A stretch of DNA of 64,000 bases from Escherichia phage vB_EcoM_KAW3E185. Below are positions 7,327-62,880 of the stretch, in pieces. The DNA is taken from the sequence record MK373782.1; one strand, given 5' to 3'. The notes beneath the pieces were generated by a model. The model was not told the DNA's origin and ran no database searches. It worked only from the letters and a program-made list of their open reading frames with translations. The translations under genes were made by a program, and so were the position numbers. The stretch's first letter is position 1; each line of letters starts with the position of its first letter.

Positions 7327-7491
7327 TTAGATGTAAATTATTTCAACGTCACCTTTAGCGGCTTTATAACCTTCAGCCCAAGATACAACAGAGTTTTTAT
7401 CTGAGGATTCAAATTCAGGCATTGGACTTTCACCAATATTCACACAGTATGTTTCTTCATTTTCATCGAACCAAATAATTAAAGTAGTCAT
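7327..7491 (-). CDS. Hypothetical 54-aa protein (below ORF-track cutoff)
   Basis: Hand translation MTTLIIWFDENEETYCVNIGESPMPEFESSDKNSVVSWAEGYKAAKGDVEIIYI; GAGGAG Shine-Dalgarno; own upstream promoter-like cassette. Confidence 0.5.
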   Translation of the reverse strand: MTTLIIWFDENEETYCVNIGESPMPEFESSDKNSVVSWAEGYKAAKGDVEIIYI

Positions 7492-7559
7492 TTTGTTTAC
7501 TCCTCTGTAGTTGATAAGTCTATAGTATCACCATCCTTGGTGCTTGTACATCATTATTT

Positions 7560-7865
7560 TTAATTTTTCCAACTTAACAACTTGTAGTGGCCTTCATTCA
7601 TACGTGGTTTATCCCAAGAAATACTAATATATGATTCACTGTCAATAGAAGTCGCCGGGTTTTTCTCTACCGTAAGACCTTCACTTTCCAGCCATTCAAT
7701 AGTATTTGCACATAAATCAGAAGAACACCTAATCGGAAACCGGCAAGATTTTTCACCTTTAGCTGCAGCGTTATACATCTTTTCTAAAATACGCTTTTGC
7801 ACGTTTTTAAAAATAGTTTCAGCAGATTCTTCGGATTTTTTATTCAGTTCAGTATAAAGACTCAT
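7560..7865 (-). CDS. Hypothetical small protein
   Basis: 101 aa; GAGGAAAA Shine-Dalgarno; PeSL upstream. Confidence 0.55.
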   Translation of the reverse strand: MSLYTELNKKSEESAETIFKNVQKRILEKMYNAAAKGEKSCRFPIRCSSDLCANTIEWLESEGLTVEKNPATSIDSESYISISWDKPRMNEGHYKLLSWKN

Positions 7866-7867
7866 AA

Positions 7868-7918
7868 CATTTTCCTCTGCGGTTGATAAGTCTATAGTAT
7901 CATGTCCTTAGAAGAAGT
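7868..7918 (-). promoter_or_regulatory. Early promoter with stem-loop (PeSL-like)
   Basis: GTTTAC, 17 bp, TACTATAG on minus strand. Confidence 0.55.
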
Positions 7919-7953
7919 AAACATCTTTATGAAATATTTTTATGCCCTAGATA

Positions 7954-7982
7954 CCAAAAAGCCCCAACCGTAAGGAAGGGGC
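7954..7982 (-). terminator. Intrinsic terminator (copy 1 of a 29-nt repeat)
   Basis: Minus strand GCCCC-TT-CC-UUAC-GG-TT-GGGGC followed by TTTTTGG, directly downstream of 7989..8453. Confidence 0.65.
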
Positions 7983-7988
7983 ATTCTA

Positions 7989-8453
7989 TTATTTAATTTG
8001 TTTAGCAGACCAGATACGGTCTTTAATAAGTTTTTGGATATCTTCAACATACTCAAGGCTATGAGCGTGAGGATTATCTTTGAAACTACGTGCTCGTGCC
8101 AGTTTCTGGCCTTCTGTTTTGATTACTAAAAGCTCTTTAAGAATTGCTTCATACTTAGAAATAATTCCTTTAACGATATTTTTTTCTTGAGCTGTTTTAG
8201 GGTCAGTTTTTGGCGCAGGTGCTTTACCTGTAGCTTTCTGGAACAATTCACCTGATGCAGCTAGGCTTTTAAAAACTCGGCTAACAGTATTAGCATTAGT
8301 AAAACCTTCGGCTTTAAAATCTCTAATAAAACGGAAACGTTCTTCATCGGAGGCGTCTTTGTAAGAATATTTACCTGCTTGAATTGCTGCAATCGCAGCG
8401 GCTTTTACATCTGAACTAGATTGTTCAGTCAAAAATTCAGCGTATGATTTCAT
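7989..8453 (-). CDS. Internal-protein-like (IP) gene with capsid targeting sequence
   Basis: N-terminus MKSYAEFLTE matches the T4 IP targeting sequence MKTYQEFIAE with an L-x-E prohead-protease site; 154 aa. Confidence 0.7.
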   Translation of the reverse strand: MKSYAEFLTEQSSSDVKAAAIAAIQAGKYSYKDASDEERFRFIRDFKAEGFTNANTVSRVFKSLAASGELFQKATGKAPAPKTDPKTAQEKNIVKGIISKYEAILKELLVIKTEGQKLARARSFKDNPHAHSLEYVEDIQKLIKDRIWSAKQIK

Positions 8454-8496
8454 GTTGCTTTTCCTAAGTTAATTAACTTATCTATTTATTATTATG

Positions 8497-8525
8497 CCAA
8501 AAAGCCCCAACCGTAAGGAAGGGGC
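8497..8525 (-). terminator. Intrinsic terminator (copy 2 of the 29-nt repeat)
   Basis: Identical to 7954..7982; downstream (minus) of the non-coding RNA region. Confidence 0.6.
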
Positions 8526-8577
8526 TAAGCCTTGCGGCAACCTTGTCGGGGTTCCACCTGCTAAGGCAAGTGTTTGT

Positions 8578-8669
8578 ACGAAACGCCGGGATTCGAACCC
8601 GGTTATTAAGCAGTTGACGCTACTCAATATTTTTAAAAGGCCATATCTCGACCATATCCGAACGTTCCG
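8578..8669 (-). ncRNA. tRNA-like element or stable RNA candidate (canonical T-arm, non-canonical remainder)
   Basis: Minus strand contains CCGGG-TTCGAAT-CCCGG T-arm and an acceptor-like pairing, but the D and anticodon arms do not fold canonically; lies in a ~300-nt ORF-free stretch. Confidence 0.35.
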
Positions 8670-8832
8670 TCAAAAACGCTACTCGGCTTACGGCAAAGAT
8701 ATTTCCTCGAATCGATAATTCGGTGCGCCGTTTCTGTTGTGATAGTAAAGAATCAGAACACAGTAAAACTGTGGGAGAAACTATACTCCAGGGAACATCA
8801 GTCCGACGACTTACCGGTAGCGACCCGGTTTC

Positions 8833-9177
8833 TCATTTTGGCATATCATCAATTTGCTCTCGACGCCGACGCCATAGATTAATCGCTTCATTAACACATT
8901 CGGCGTTTGGTATATGACGGCAATAATATAATGATTCGCGTTTCTGGAACCGATGTTGCAACGGGATTTCGTTTAAAAGATCTTTACGATCAAAGTATTC
9001 AAAACTAGTTAACCCTGAACGGTTTTTAATGAACTTCCAATGGCCGAATTCATTTTGAACATAGATGTAATCGGCATGCTGATAAAGTGAATTAATCAAT
9101 CGATGAGAAATAACTGTATCATATTCATTAAAATAAAACGTTAAATCATGAACTACCAAATAAATATTGCCTTTCAT
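8833..9177 (-). CDS. Hypothetical protein (115 aa from internal ATG)
   Basis: ORF track 8833..9225; internal ATG MKGNIYLVV has GAGGAAAA Shine-Dalgarno. Confidence 0.5.
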   Translation of the reverse strand: MKGNIYLVVHDLTFYFNEYDTVISHRLINSLYQHADYIYVQNEFGHWKFIKNRSGLTSFEYFDRKDLLNEIPLQHRFQKRESLYYCRHIPNAECVNEAINLWRRRREQIDDMPK

Positions 9178-9195
9178 ATTTTCCTCACTTATAAT

Positions 9196-9272
<77 letters not shown>

Positions 9273-9275
9273 GAT

Positions 9276-9352
9276 TGGTGACCCAGACCAGATTCGAACT
9301 GGTAACCTTTCCCTTATGAGGGGACTGCTGCTAACCGTTGAGCTACAGGGCC
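9276..9352 (-). tRNA. tRNA with CAU anticodon (Met, or Ile if lysidine-modified)
   Basis: Canonical T-arm ACCAG-TTCGAAT-CTGGT, anticodon loop CTCATAA, encoded CCA; one acceptor mismatch and an imperfect D-stem in my reading. Confidence 0.6.
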
Positions 9353-9431
9353 TAAATAACTTTCTATTATGAAAGGCACTTTAGAGCACCTTTGGTAATA
9401 GAGGGTATGAATTAATAATAACACATAATTC

Positions 9432-10857: not shown

Positions 10858-11121
10858 TTATTTCAAATATATTGCGTATTTTTTATAGCCACCAGGCTCG
10901 TGTCGAAGACCTTTATCATTTGCAAAACGTTGAATGTTATTGAACTGATTTTCATCAAGTTCAGACGTGTCAAATATGAAAAAGTTTCGTTTGTTACCAA
11001 GCGTGATATGCGGAGTTAAGTCAATGTTATACAAATTAAGAATATCAACAATAACCTGATTGACCGCTTTGTTAATTTTCACACCAGACGATTCTGAGAT
11101 GAATTCGTTGAAAGTTTTCAT
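10858..11121 (-). CDS. Internal-protein-like (IP) gene with capsid targeting sequence
   Basis: MKTFNEFISE at internal ATG (ORF track starts 4 codons earlier, at 11133); L/I-x-E cleavage motif. Confidence 0.65.
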   Translation of the reverse strand: MKTFNEFISESSGVKINKAVNQVIVDILNLYNIDLTPHITLGNKRNFFIFDTSELDENQFNNIQRFANDKGLRHEPGGYKKYAIYLK

Positions 11122-11186: not shown

Positions 11187-11474
11187 TTACAGAAGAGTTT
11201 TTGCAATAATTTTAAGCTGAGCTACAGAAATATGCTTAGCTTTAAACAGTGCAGTCTCTTCAGCCGGAGAGATAACAATAGTAGCGCCATCTTTCTTAGC
11301 AGACCATCCATCCCCTAAGTAAACAGTACCTTTTACTTCTTCACCATCAACCAGACTAATCATTGGTTTACCCTCACGTCCTTTATTTGTTTTAATAACT
11401 TCAGAAGTAAGGGATGCTTCGGTCAGAGTAGAAACGTTAGCAACAGGTGATATAAATTCTTTATAGGTTTTCAT
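11187..11474 (-). CDS. Internal-protein-like (IP) gene with capsid targeting sequence
   Basis: N-terminus MKTYKEFIS; 95 aa; AAGGAAATAAA Shine-Dalgarno. Confidence 0.7.
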   Translation of the reverse strand: MKTYKEFISPVANVSTLTEASLTSEVIKTNKGREGKPMISLVDGEEVKGTVYLGDGWSAKKDGATIVISPAEETALFKAKHISVAQLKIIAKTLL

Positions 11475-24252: not shown

Positions 24253-24278
24253 GGGAGCCTTCGGGCTCCCATTTTTGT
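24253..24278 (+). terminator. Intrinsic terminator after gene 8
   Basis: GGGAGCC-TTCG-GGCTCCC followed by ATTTTTGT. Confidence 0.7.
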
Positions 24279-24281
24279 ATC

Positions 24282-24289
24282 TATAAATA
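24282..24289 (+). promoter_or_regulatory. Late promoter TATAAATA (gene 9)
   Basis: Exact TATAAATA ~33 nt upstream of gene 9. Confidence 0.7.
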
Positions 24290-51822: not shown

Positions 51823-52053
51823 ATGGTACTTGAATTTAAACAATTTTTATACGAAGCATCTATTGACGAATTCATGGGTAAAATTGCTAGTTGTCATACC
51901 TTAGAAGGGCTTGAAGAATTGGAAGCTTATTATAAGAAACGTATAAAAGAAACGGAATTAAAAGATACAGATGATATTTCTGTCAGGGATGCCTTAGCAG
52001 GTAAGCGTGCCGAACTTGAAGGCGATGATGAGGATGTGGAAGAAGACTTCTAA
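51823..52053 (+). CDS. uvsW.1: UvsW.1
   Basis: 76 aa, same as T4 UvsW.1; hairpin plus Shine-Dalgarno in the gap. Confidence 0.85.
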   Translation: MVLEFKQFLYEASIDEFMGKIASCHTLEGLEELEAYYKKRIKETELKDTDDISVRDALAGKRAELEGDDEDVEEDF

Positions 52054-52059
52054 TTAAAA

Positions 52060-52092
52060 AAAGGCCCGACCTTTTTGGAAGGGCCAAAAACC
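52060..52092. terminator. Candidate bidirectional terminator
   Basis: A-run, GGCCC...GGGCC inverted repeat, then A/T-run, between convergent genes. Confidence 0.4.
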
Positions 52093-62824: not shown

Positions 62825-62864
62825 AGTGTTTTCCTTTTAGTAATAATTTATATTTATGCCAAAA

Positions 62865-62880
62865 AGAGCCCGAAGGCTCT
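62865..62880 (-). terminator. Terminator hairpin
   Basis: Minus strand AGAGCC-TTCG-GGCTCT followed by TTTTTGGCATA, the same tail as the 7954 and 8497 terminators. Confidence 0.55.

What the first reader, a model, noticed from the sequence alone, without database searches (positions are those of the whole stretch)
7954..8525. Internal-protein gene bracketed by two identical 29-nt terminator repeats
An IP-like gene (N-terminus MKSYAEFLTE) is flanked about 540 bp apart by two identical copies of CCAAAAAGCCCCAACCGTAAGGAAGGGGC, each a hairpin plus T-tract on the minus strand. A related tail (TATGCCAAAAAG plus hairpin) recurs near 62860. Identical direct repeats around a hypervariable cargo gene are the arrangement expected for cassette exchange by homologous recombination between co-infecting phages.
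Basis: seen in the sequence. Interest (0 to 1): 0.55.

Follow-up and report, generated by a model that had tools for sequence, protein, structure and literature searches.

The report
Duplicated terminator bracketing a phage gene cassette
In this T4-like (RB69-type) phage, a small late gene for a probable head-packaged protein sits between two copies of one transcription terminator, and relatives show this 0.55-kb unit being gained and lost at exactly those copies, which is a known way T4-type phages shuffle accessory genes.

Summary
CCAAAAAGCCCCAACCGTAAGGAAGGGGC occurs exactly twice (7954-7982, 8497-8525), with none expected by chance. Each copy is a minus-strand hairpin plus U-tract. They bracket a 154-aa minus-strand gene (7989-8453) whose first ten residues match the capsid-targeting leader of T4 internal proteins.

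The window is a Mosigvirus. The upstream copy (T1) is the terminator that follows the tRNA/rnaD/rnaC genes. T4, T2 and PST have one copy there and no gene. Other relatives carry this gene (A), an unrelated leader-bearing gene (B), A+B, or different cargo.

A-cassette gain/loss junctions fall inside the terminator repeat: about 550 bp of extra DNA with at least 18-25 nt shared. B and other cassettes share only about 9-13 nt.

Exact identity is not conserved. Only 7 of 29 A-bearing loci have identical hairpins. The nearest relatives differ from this window's T1 only in the loop, which suggests local gene conversion.

The element near 62860 is the terminator and late promoter upstream of alt, not a third copy.

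RB32's GenBank record already notes the ortholog as "flanked by 34 bp imperfect direct repeat", and shuffling through repeated regulatory elements is published. Modest interest.

The parts
8497..8525 (-). T1: upstream copy of the terminator repeat (hairpin GCCCC..GGGGC plus UUUUUGG). It ends the tRNA-Met/tRNA-Arg/ORF150c/rnaD/rnaC transcription unit.
   Evidence: Exact 29-mer and predicted fold. It is orthologous to the single terminator that follows rnaC in T4 and is annotated as a terminator in PhAPEC2 and fPS-90.
7954..7982 (-). T2: downstream copy of the same terminator, 6 nt after the stop codon of gene A. It insulates the next early gene from late transcription of A.
   Evidence: Annotated as a terminator in SA79RD, PhAPEC2 and WFbE185. 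Its left flank ccctagatacc matches the flank of T4's single copy, cttagatacc.
7989..8453 (-). Gene A: a 154-aa protein with an N-terminal MKSYAEFLTE leader, resembling the T4 capsid-targeting sequence and LxE cleavage motif. The mature part has unknown function.
   Evidence: ORF. It matches phrog_2280 (unknown function, E=8.5e-53) and, over the N-terminus only, weakly matches an internal-virion-protein family. The leader shares 7/10 residues with RB32 Ip4, MKTYQEFITE, and 9/10 with gene B. The AF2 model is all-helical (pLDDT 71) and has no significant fold match outside close relatives of gene A.
8483..8490 (-). Late-promoter-like octamer AATAAATA, a 7/8 match to the T4 late consensus TATAAATA. 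It sits immediately downstream of T1's U-tract and 29 nt before the ATG.
   Evidence: Sequence read. Tequatrovirus orthologs have a perfect TATAAATA at the same place (flanks). fPS-90 annotates a predicted late promoter there.
8526..8836 (-). Homologs of the T4 stable RNAs rnaC and rnaD, with a tRNA-like 3' domain. T1 terminates this unit.
   Evidence: 89% identity to T4 70,825-71,173, where rnaC and rnaD are annotated. No Rfam family matches.
9196..9352 (-). tRNA-Arg(UCU) and tRNA-Met(CAU), in the upstream part of the same transcription unit (context).
7560..7915 (-). Next module: an early-type promoter and leader (7873-7915) with an RB69ORF146c-like 101-aa gene (7560-7865). In many relatives e.8 occupies this position instead.
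   Evidence: (family D4).
62854..62879 (-). Not a member: the terminator (GAGCC-TTCG-GGCTC) plus late-promoter-like CATAAATATAAAT upstream of the alt-like gene. It shares only TTTTTGGCATAA with T1.
   Evidence: Nolan et al. 2006 list a conserved terminator upstream of alt.

Best explanation
The two repeats are one intrinsic terminator present twice. T1 is the resident terminator of the tRNA-rnaD-rnaC unit. T2 is its duplicate, closing a 0.54-kb late-gene cassette (late-type promoter, Shine-Dalgarno site, 154-aa gene with a capsid-targeting leader) that sits in the rnaC/e.8 gap.

Both copies work as terminators, so the cassette is transcriptionally insulated. Because they are about 30 bp of near-identical DNA in direct orientation, the phage's very active homologous recombination can use them as linkers. 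Exchange between T1 and T2 deletes the cassette and leaves one copy, the state seen in T4, or in RB69 when B follows. Exchange in a mixed infection between an occupied and an empty genome, or genomes with different cargo, inserts or swaps cassettes.

Occasional gene conversion between the copies homogenises them. I infer that this is why they are identical in this genome.

Shown: the repeat, the hairpins, the gene and its leader, the empty, occupied and alternative alleles, and junctions inside the repeat.
Inferred: termination activity, late expression, packaging of the protein, and the recombination and conversion events themselves.
For: - Exact repeat with 0 expected by chance.
- Hairpin plus U-tract on the strand of all local genes.
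- T4 has one copy, whose left flank equals that of the window's T2 and whose right flank equals that of its T1.
- A-cassette indels in three genome pairs add 547-557 bp with at least 18-25 nt of junction homology inside the terminator: RB69/PhAPEC2, T4/RB32, L020/fPS-90.
- Left-flank and right-flank types combine freely across 36 loci.
- Population counts in 50,697 phage records: rnaC/D region 809, gene A 469 (always one place per genome), gene B 165, and at most 83 records covering at least 80% of the T4-type empty junction.
- Conversion: the closest relatives, EP02SG and PTK (about 96.6% identity), have loop TTTC in T1 and GTAA in T2. Within the 29-mer, the window's T1 differs from theirs only at 8513, 8515 and 8516, and it matches its own T2 exactly.
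- The same loop or stem variants (TTTC/GTAA in Mosigvirus; GGTC/GGCT in Tequatrovirus) occur at both T1 and T2 positions in different genomes.
- Published precedent: Arbiol 2010 PMC2839356 and Comeau 2014 PMC4122927. T4 needs only small (<50 bp) patches of homology (Singer 1982, as cited).
Against: - No recombinant junction, mini-circle or deletion variant was observed directly.
- About 30 bp is short for efficient T4 recombination.
- B and the other cassettes share only about 9-13 nt (AAAAAGCCC) at their junctions, so not all events here need homologous exchange.
- T1 and T2 differ at 1-5 positions in 22 of 29 loci, so homogenisation is sporadic.
- ChristianSchoenbein also carries the GTAA loop at T1 with a different T2. 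The window's T1 allele could therefore have arrived by ordinary inter-phage recombination rather than intragenomic conversion.
- Terminator function is predicted only, and the fold z-score is unremarkable at -1.5.
Confidence: 0.75

Rival explanations
1. Two independently maintained terminators with no role in recombination. Each transcription unit simply needs a terminator. Their similarity reflects one old duplication plus selection on hairpin function. Cassettes arrived by illegitimate recombination (moron-like accretion), and only insertions at unit boundaries survived.
For: - Variation is concentrated in the loop and in structure-neutral stem positions, as expected under selection for structure.
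- B and other cassettes have only 9-13 nt of junction identity.
- Terminator-plus-late-promoter composites occur elsewhere in the window, for example 24253-24289 and 62854-62879.
Against: - The single copies in RB69 and T4 are exact chimeras: T2's left flank with T1's right flank, and 18-25+ nt of shared junction sequence.
- Multi-nucleotide variants are shared between T1 and T2 positions across genomes.
- The 3-nt loop patch making T1 equal to T2 in this window is unlikely to arise by independent mutation.
Confidence: 0.12
2. Targeted rather than general recombination. One route is a hairpin- or GGGC/GCCC-recognising protein or cruciform-processing nuclease that initiates exchange at the terminators. 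In Tequatroviruses, another route is double-strand breaks made by the nearby SegB homing endonuclease, which would drive co-conversion tracts that end in the conserved terminators.
For: - Mosig et al. 1998, as summarised in Arbiol 2010, found T4 deletions ending at GGGC/GCCC inverted repeats and proposed a targeted pathway. The stems here are GCCCC/GGGGC.
- segB lies about 0.4 kb upstream of the site in T4, RB32, fPS-90 and PST.
- Loop inversions in the hairpins of relatives suggest that the DNA hairpins are themselves recombinogenic (CATTTAG versus CTAAATG; TTTC versus GAAA).
Against: - The window and the other Mosigviruses sampled have no seg gene at this locus, yet show the same polymorphism. 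Petrov 2010 lists no homing endonucleases in RB69.
- No candidate hairpin-binding protein was identified.
- The data are equally well explained by general recombination.
Confidence: 0.08
3. Origin by tandem duplication. A and B are old paralogs produced by unequal crossing-over between terminator copies, then diverged. On this view the repeats are relics of duplication rather than linkers for exchanging foreign cargo.
For: - Both A and B hit the same PHROG, phrog_2280, at about 1e-53.
- They share 9/10 leader residues.
- They share a weak C-terminal helix similarity (hhalign probability 37%, 35% identity over 26 aa).
Against: - BLASTP finds nothing beyond the leader, and the hhalign probability is low.
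- B's terminator has an unrelated stem, GCCCTATC..GATAGGGC.
- Unrelated cargo without a leader also occupies the slot.
Confidence: 0.1

Closest known systems
RB32ORF133c as annotated in GenBank NC_008515 ('flanked by 34 bp imperfect direct repeat')
   Same: It is the orthologous gene (157 aa, about 80% amino-acid identity in the alignment), in the same slot between rnaC and e.8. The same terminator repeat lies on both sides.
   Different: In RB32 the copies differ (GGTC versus GGCT in the stem), whereas here they are identical. RB32 calls the protein hypothetical and does not mention the leader, the terminator nature of the repeat, or a mechanism.
PeSLs (promoter-early stem-loops) of RB49/phi1, PST/T4 and nt-1/KVP40 (Arbiol et al. 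2010, PMC2839356; Comeau et al. 2014, PMC4122927)
   Same: These are repeated regulatory elements containing a stem-loop terminator that flank small non-essential ORFs in hyperplastic regions. Close relatives differ by indels that leave a single element. The proposed mechanism is recombination between the elements.
   Different: PeSLs are about 100 bp, include a strong sigma70-like early promoter, and occur many times per genome. Here the repeat is 29-34 nt, is only a terminator (a late-type promoter abuts T1 alone), and has two copies in 64 kb. There is no sequence homology to PeSLs.
Polymorphic internal-protein (IP) loci of T-even phages (Repoila et al. 1994, as described in PMC2839356 and PMC3012670)
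   Same: These are diverse small proteins sharing only the N-terminal capsid-targeting sequence. They are arranged as exchangeable units flanked by repeated regulatory DNA. RB32's Ip7 and Ip9 are likewise annotated 'flanked by 43 bp direct repeat'.
   Different: The literature describes two IP loci (near e and near 57B) and says IP genes are absent elsewhere. Its linkers are described as early-promoter-based with weak AT-rich stem-loops. The present site is a third position and uses a G+C-rich terminator. Packaging of A is unproven. I could not read the 1994 paper itself.
Morons of lambdoid phages
   Same: A single gene with its own promoter and terminator is inserted between resident transcription units.
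   Different: Morons are not thought to use conserved flanking sequences for mobility, and they differ in G+C content from the host phage. Here the flanks are homologous repeats, and the cassette stays at one locus.

Membership tests
T4-type internal (head-packaged, injected) proteins | N-terminal capsid-targeting sequence of about 10 aa (MKT[YF]xEF[IL]xE) ending in the prohead-protease motif (L/I)xE | tested here: met
   A starts MKSYAEFLTE|Q. Compare RB32 Ip4 MKTYQEFITE, Ip7 MKTFKEFINE, and gene B MKTYAEFLTE.
T4-type internal (head-packaged, injected) proteins | Expression from a late promoter (TATAAATA) | tested here: inconclusive
   The window has AATAAATA (7/8) at 8483-8490. Tequatrovirus orthologs have a perfect TATAAATA at the same place, and fPS-90 annotates a late promoter there. 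No transcript data are available.
T4-type internal (head-packaged, injected) proteins | Sequence membership in a recognised IP family | tested here: not met
   The best family is phrog_2280, 'unknown function'. The only IP hit, phrog_7857 (E=0.0075), covers residues 1-43. There is no Pfam hit. All listed GenBank annotations say hypothetical protein.
T4-type internal (head-packaged, injected) proteins | Physical presence in virions with the leader removed | not testable with these tools
   I found no proteomic report for this protein or its orthologs.
T4-type internal (head-packaged, injected) proteins | Location in one of the two described IP loci (next to e, or next to 57B) | tested here: not met
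   The gene lies between rnaC and ORF146c/e.8. The canonical ipI-locus genes of this window are at 10858-11121 and 11187-11474.
Intrinsic (rho-independent) terminator | G+C-rich hairpin followed directly by a U-tract, at the 3' end of a transcription unit on the coding strand | tested here: met
   GCCCC..GGGGC followed by UUUUUGG on the minus strand. One copy lies 6 nt after the stop codon of gene A, the other after rnaC. The stem is interrupted, so the simple scan missed both copies. Other groups' terminator predictors call the orthologs.
Intrinsic (rho-independent) terminator | Measured termination of transcription | not testable with these tools
   This needs a reporter assay or RNA 3'-end mapping.
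PeSL (promoter-early stem-loop) cassettes | Composite of a sigma70-like early promoter and a stem-loop within the repeated unit | tested here: not met
   The 29-34 nt repeat holds only the hairpin and U-tract. No -35/-10 pair lies within it.
PeSL (promoter-early stem-loop) cassettes | Many dispersed copies in hyperplastic regions | tested here: not met
   Only two copies with up to 3 mismatches in 64 kb. The multi-copy family of this window is a different element, D1, an early promoter plus stem-loop with 8 copies.
PeSL (promoter-early stem-loop) cassettes | Indels between close relatives whose junction is a single element | tested here: met
   Seen in T4 versus RB32, RB69 versus PhAPEC2, and L020 versus fPS-90.
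Recombination-exchangeable gene cassette bounded by direct repeats | Empty-site allele carrying exactly one repeat copy with the outer flanks of the occupied allele | tested here: met
   Found in T4, T2 and PST, and in at most 83 records that cover at least 80% of the T4-type junction.
Recombination-exchangeable gene cassette bounded by direct repeats | Different cargo in the same slot in different genomes | tested here: met
   The slot holds A, B, A+B, a 184-aa phrog_2143 gene, or a 141-aa phrog_9997 gene.
Recombination-exchangeable gene cassette bounded by direct repeats | Observed excision or insertion products (deletion junctions, circles) | not testable with these tools
   No read data are available.

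The most novel reading that the evidence does not exclude
The gap between rnaC and e.8 is a third internal-protein locus of T-even-type phages that has not been formally recognised. Its cassettes A and B would be late-expressed, leader-targeted proteins packaged in the head and injected as anti-defence factors. They would be exchanged within and between Tequatrovirus and Mosigvirus through terminator linkers that also undergo gene conversion, a 'late' analogue of PeSLs.
Probability: 0.4. Interest if true: 0.45.

Novelty: new member of a known kind. Interest (0 to 1): 0.3.

Why it matters
Head-packaged internal proteins of T-even phages are injected counter-defence factors; IPI*, for example, blocks the GmrSD restriction system. 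How phages swap these proteins affects host range and the design of phage therapy.

This locus gives a clean natural series of empty, single, double and alternative cassettes, with junctions that can be mapped to the nucleotide in hundreds of sequenced genomes. It also points to two uncharacterised proteins bearing the targeting leader: A in 469 phage records and B in 165.

The principle, shuffling through repeated regulatory elements, is already published. The gain here is therefore incremental: another well-documented example, at a site outside the two classical IP loci.

Tried and rejected
- **Third copy at 62860.** Rejected. The hairpin is different, and only U-tract+GGCATAA is shared, with weak significance.
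- **Third weak copy at 52053-52084 (66%).** This is the bidirectional terminator after a uvsW.1-like ORF, not a family member.
- **Recombination breakpoint at T1 against HY01.** The rnaC/D block is 100% identical to Tequatrovirus HY01. However, rnaC is 98-100% conserved in all relatives, so only the 8700-8800 patch is informative and the breakpoint cannot be placed at T1.
- **Function of protein A.** No Pfam hit. The family is narrow (8 clusters, none with a functional name). The AF2 model (pLDDT 71) has no significant fold match in PDB and, in BFVD, only close relatives of gene A.
- **Rfam for the rnaC/rnaD-like RNAs.** No family matched.
- **Covariation support for the hairpin.** The variants are loop changes or leave the U/U mismatches unpaired, so no compensatory pairs were available.
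- **Literature.** Repoila 1994 and Miller 2003 are not held. No paper mentions RB69ORF149c or RB32ORF133c, and I found no virion proteomics for these proteins.
- **Collection scans.** IMG/VR and metagenome scans with an rnaC anchor gave only 6 and 8 loci.
- **Junction-walking script.** It failed for pairs whose indel is not next to the anchor: RB32/fPS-90 and SF/ChristianSchoenbein.

Full report
**What is in the sequence**

The 29-mer CCAAAAAGCCCCAACCGTAAGGAAGGGGC occurs exactly twice in the 64-kb window, at 7954-7982 and 8497-8525. There is no further match with up to three mismatches, and none in 100 shuffles. The identity extends to 32 nt with one mismatch (family D5).

All genes in this region are on the minus strand. 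On that strand each copy is GCCCCUUCC-UUAC-GGUUGGGGC followed by UUUUUGG, a G+C-rich hairpin with a U-tract. The stem is interrupted by a 2x2 U/U internal loop, which is why the simple scan did not list it. Several groups annotate the orthologous hairpins as rho-independent terminators in SA79RD, PhAPEC2, fPS-90 and WFbE185.

Between the copies lies one ORF, 7989-8453 on the minus strand, 154 aa, starting MKSYAEFLTE.

The 'related tail' near 62860 is a different hairpin (GAGCC-TTCG-GGCTC). It shares only TTTTTGGCATAA with T1. It lies upstream of the 695-aa alt-like gene and is followed by late-promoter-like CATAAATATAAAT. Nolan et al. 2006 list a conserved terminator upstream of alt. It is a functional look-alike, a terminator abutting a late promoter, and not a third copy.

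**Context**

The window is a T4-type phage of the RB69 group (Mosigvirus). The best matches to 7400-9400 are about 96% identical. Reading the minus strand from high to low coordinates:

- tRNA-Met and tRNA-Arg (9352-9196)
- an ORF150c-like gene
- homologs of the T4 stable RNAs rnaD and rnaC (about 8836-8526)
- T1 (8525-8497)
- a late-promoter-like octamer AATAAATA (8490-8483) and a Shine-Dalgarno site
- gene A
- T2 (7982-7954)
- an early-type promoter and an RB69ORF146c-like gene (7865-7560)

T1 is thus the resident terminator of the tRNA/stable-RNA unit. T2 is a second copy closing a one-gene late unit.

**The cargo**

Gene A belongs to phrog_2280 (unknown function). It has no Pfam hit, and only its N-terminus weakly matches an internal-virion-protein family. 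Its homologs are confined to T-even-type phages, and none carries a functional name.

The first ten residues match the capsid-targeting sequence of recognised internal proteins: RB32 Ip4 MKTYQEFITE and Ip7 MKTFKEFINE. They end in the LxE motif of the prohead protease. [quoted passage not shown]

An AF2 model is all-helical with moderate confidence and has no significant fold match beyond close relatives of gene A. 'Internal-protein-like' is therefore a reasonable but unproven label. The leader test is met, the late-promoter test is 7/8 here (perfect in Tequatrovirus orthologs), and packaging is untested.

**Comparative test**

I collected the locus from 36 genomes and contigs. I listed every terminator with its flanks.

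- T4 has one copy directly after rnaC, followed by e.8. Its left flank (cttagatacc) is that of the window's T2, and its right flank (..tgcggcaacc) is that of the window's T1.
- T2 and PST are also empty.
- Most genomes have T1-A-T2.
- RB69 and a metagenomic Tequatrovirus (L020) have an unrelated gene B (187 aa, MKTYAEFLTE) directly after T1.
- PhAPEC2, ST2, ChristianSchoenbein, ECML-134, fPS-90 and others have T1-A-T2-B-T3.
- Two IMG/VR genomes carry a 184-aa phrog_2143 gene or a 141-aa phrog_9997 gene in the slot.

Flank types recombine freely. RB69's single T1 has the left flank of PhAPEC2's T2 (gagtgattcaaact) and the right flank of its T1.

A simple endpoint analysis of three pairs differing by cassette A gave 547-557 bp of extra DNA. 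Junction identity was at least 18-25 nt inside the terminator, and the method is conservative. Cassette B and the others share only about 9-13 nt (the U-tract plus the first stem bases).

Across 50,697 phage records:

| Feature | Records |
|---|---|
| rnaC/D region | 809 |
| Gene A (one place per genome) | 469 |
| Gene B | 165 |
| At least 80% coverage of the T4-type empty junction | at most 83 |

Of 30 A-bearing loci, 29 have both copies. The exception, L009, has a different short hairpin after A.

**Why the copies are identical here**

Identity is not the rule. The 22-nt hairpins of T1 and T2 are identical in 7 of 29 loci and differ at 1-5 positions in the rest (the apparent '10' values are a register shift caused by an A-to-G change in the A-run).

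The closest relatives, EP02SG and PTK, have loop TTTC in T1 and GTAA in T2. Within the 29-mer, the window's T1 differs from theirs only at 8513, 8515 and 8516, and there it matches its own T2 exactly. Three clustered changes that recreate the other copy point to a short gene-conversion patch.

The same multi-nucleotide variants (TTTC/GTAA in Mosigvirus; GGTC/GGCT in Tequatrovirus) occur at both T1 and T2 positions in different genomes. This also argues for exchange between copies.

One caveat applies. ChristianSchoenbein also has GTAA at T1 with a different T2, so the allele could have been imported by inter-phage recombination.

**Mechanism**

The best-supported reading is a transcriptionally insulated one-gene late cassette whose bounding terminators double as short homologous linkers for the phage's recombination system. 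This yields deletion to one copy, insertion into empty sites, and reordering during mixed infection, with sporadic homogenisation of the copies.

Termination, late expression, packaging and the recombination events are inferred. Rivals are:

- purely functional duplicates with illegitimate insertion
- a targeted pathway: the GGGC/GCCC-associated deletions noted by Mosig 1998 as cited in PMC2839356, or SegB-driven co-conversion in Tequatroviruses
- an origin of A and B by tandem duplication, since both hit phrog_2280 and show weak C-terminal similarity

**Comparison with what is known**

RB32's GenBank record already annotates the ortholog (RB32ORF133c) as 'flanked by 34 bp imperfect direct repeat', and Ip7/Ip9 as 'flanked by 43 bp direct repeat'. 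Arbiol et al. 2010 and Comeau et al. 2014 describe PeSLs, repeated promoter-terminator elements that mediate modular shuffling. They credit Repoila et al. 1994 with seeing analogous elements at the two IP loci.

The present element works like these but is not a PeSL. It has no early promoter in the repeat, only two copies, and a length of about 30 nt. [quoted passage not shown]

I could not read Repoila 1994 or Comeau 2007, so an earlier description of this site cannot be excluded. I found no paper naming these ORFs.

**Verdict**

It is another member of a known kind of modular-shuffling arrangement. Its modest new points are a third site for leader-bearing cassettes and evidence for conversion between terminator copies. 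Interest: 0.3.

Noticed in passing
window 7501-7530 and 7873-7902: A 30-nt direct repeat (93% identical; the early-promoter -10 region plus Shine-Dalgarno leader on the minus strand) brackets the neighbouring ORF146c-like gene (7560-7865). The next gene is therefore also flanked by repeated regulatory DNA.
   Followed up: partly
window 2627, 2896, 4191, 7290, 10807, 11135, 11490, 44620 (65-nt family D1): Eight copies of an early-promoter (GTTTACA...TATAGT) plus stem-loop element precede small early genes. These include the two canonical IP genes at 10858-11121 (MKTFNEFISE) and 11187-11474 (ipI-like, MKTYKEFIS). They look like the 'PeSL-like' IP-associated elements attributed to Repoila 1994.
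   Followed up: partly
window 8700-8800 (rnaD-like variable segment): This patch, like the whole 8526-8830 block, is 100% identical to Tequatrovirus HY01. It is only 52-61% identical (in the 8750 bin) to the otherwise closest Mosigviruses. This is a small inter-genus mosaic patch inside a stable-RNA gene.
   Followed up: partly
L002 (PhAPEC2) 2842-2867 versus L032 (ChristianSchoenbein) about 1232-1265; L032 about 1917-1950: Terminator loops are inverted between relatives. The loop of B's terminator is CATTTAG in one and CTAAATG in the other, and one T2 has GAAA where others have TTTC. This suggests hairpin-mediated loop inversions.
   Followed up: no
window 52053-52090: A bidirectional-looking terminator (AAAAAAAGGCCCGACCTTTTTGGAAGGGCCAAAAA) follows a 76-aa uvsW.1-like ORF. 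Its inner stem resembles T1/T2 (66%). It corresponds to the conserved bidirectional terminator noted by Nolan et al. 2006.
   Followed up: partly
L009 (IMGVR_UViG_2974735671), between gene A and e.8: A truncated remnant (MKLLK-stop) of the 184-aa cassette gene seen intact in L005. It is flanked by a different short hairpin and a T1-like terminator, and looks like a decayed cassette.
   Followed up: no
Gene B (e.g. L002 2875-3438) across the phage database: Gene B is 95-100% identical at the DNA level in 164 of 165 records, spanning both Tequatrovirus and Mosigvirus. Gene A is only about 75% identical between the two genera. This hints at recent inter-genus spread of cassette B.
   Followed up: partly
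window 24253-24289: Another compact terminator (GGGAGCC-TTCG-GGCTCCC) is followed within about 12 nt by a perfect late promoter TATAAATA. Terminator/late-promoter composites appear to be a recurrent design in this genome.
   Followed up: no
L018 (metagenome UMIC01010870.1) 565-888: The copy of gene A is truncated to 107 aa, apparently by a frameshift. Its downstream terminator carries the left flank of the 141-aa module (tttattcggggtat). This adds a further flank combination.
   Followed up: no
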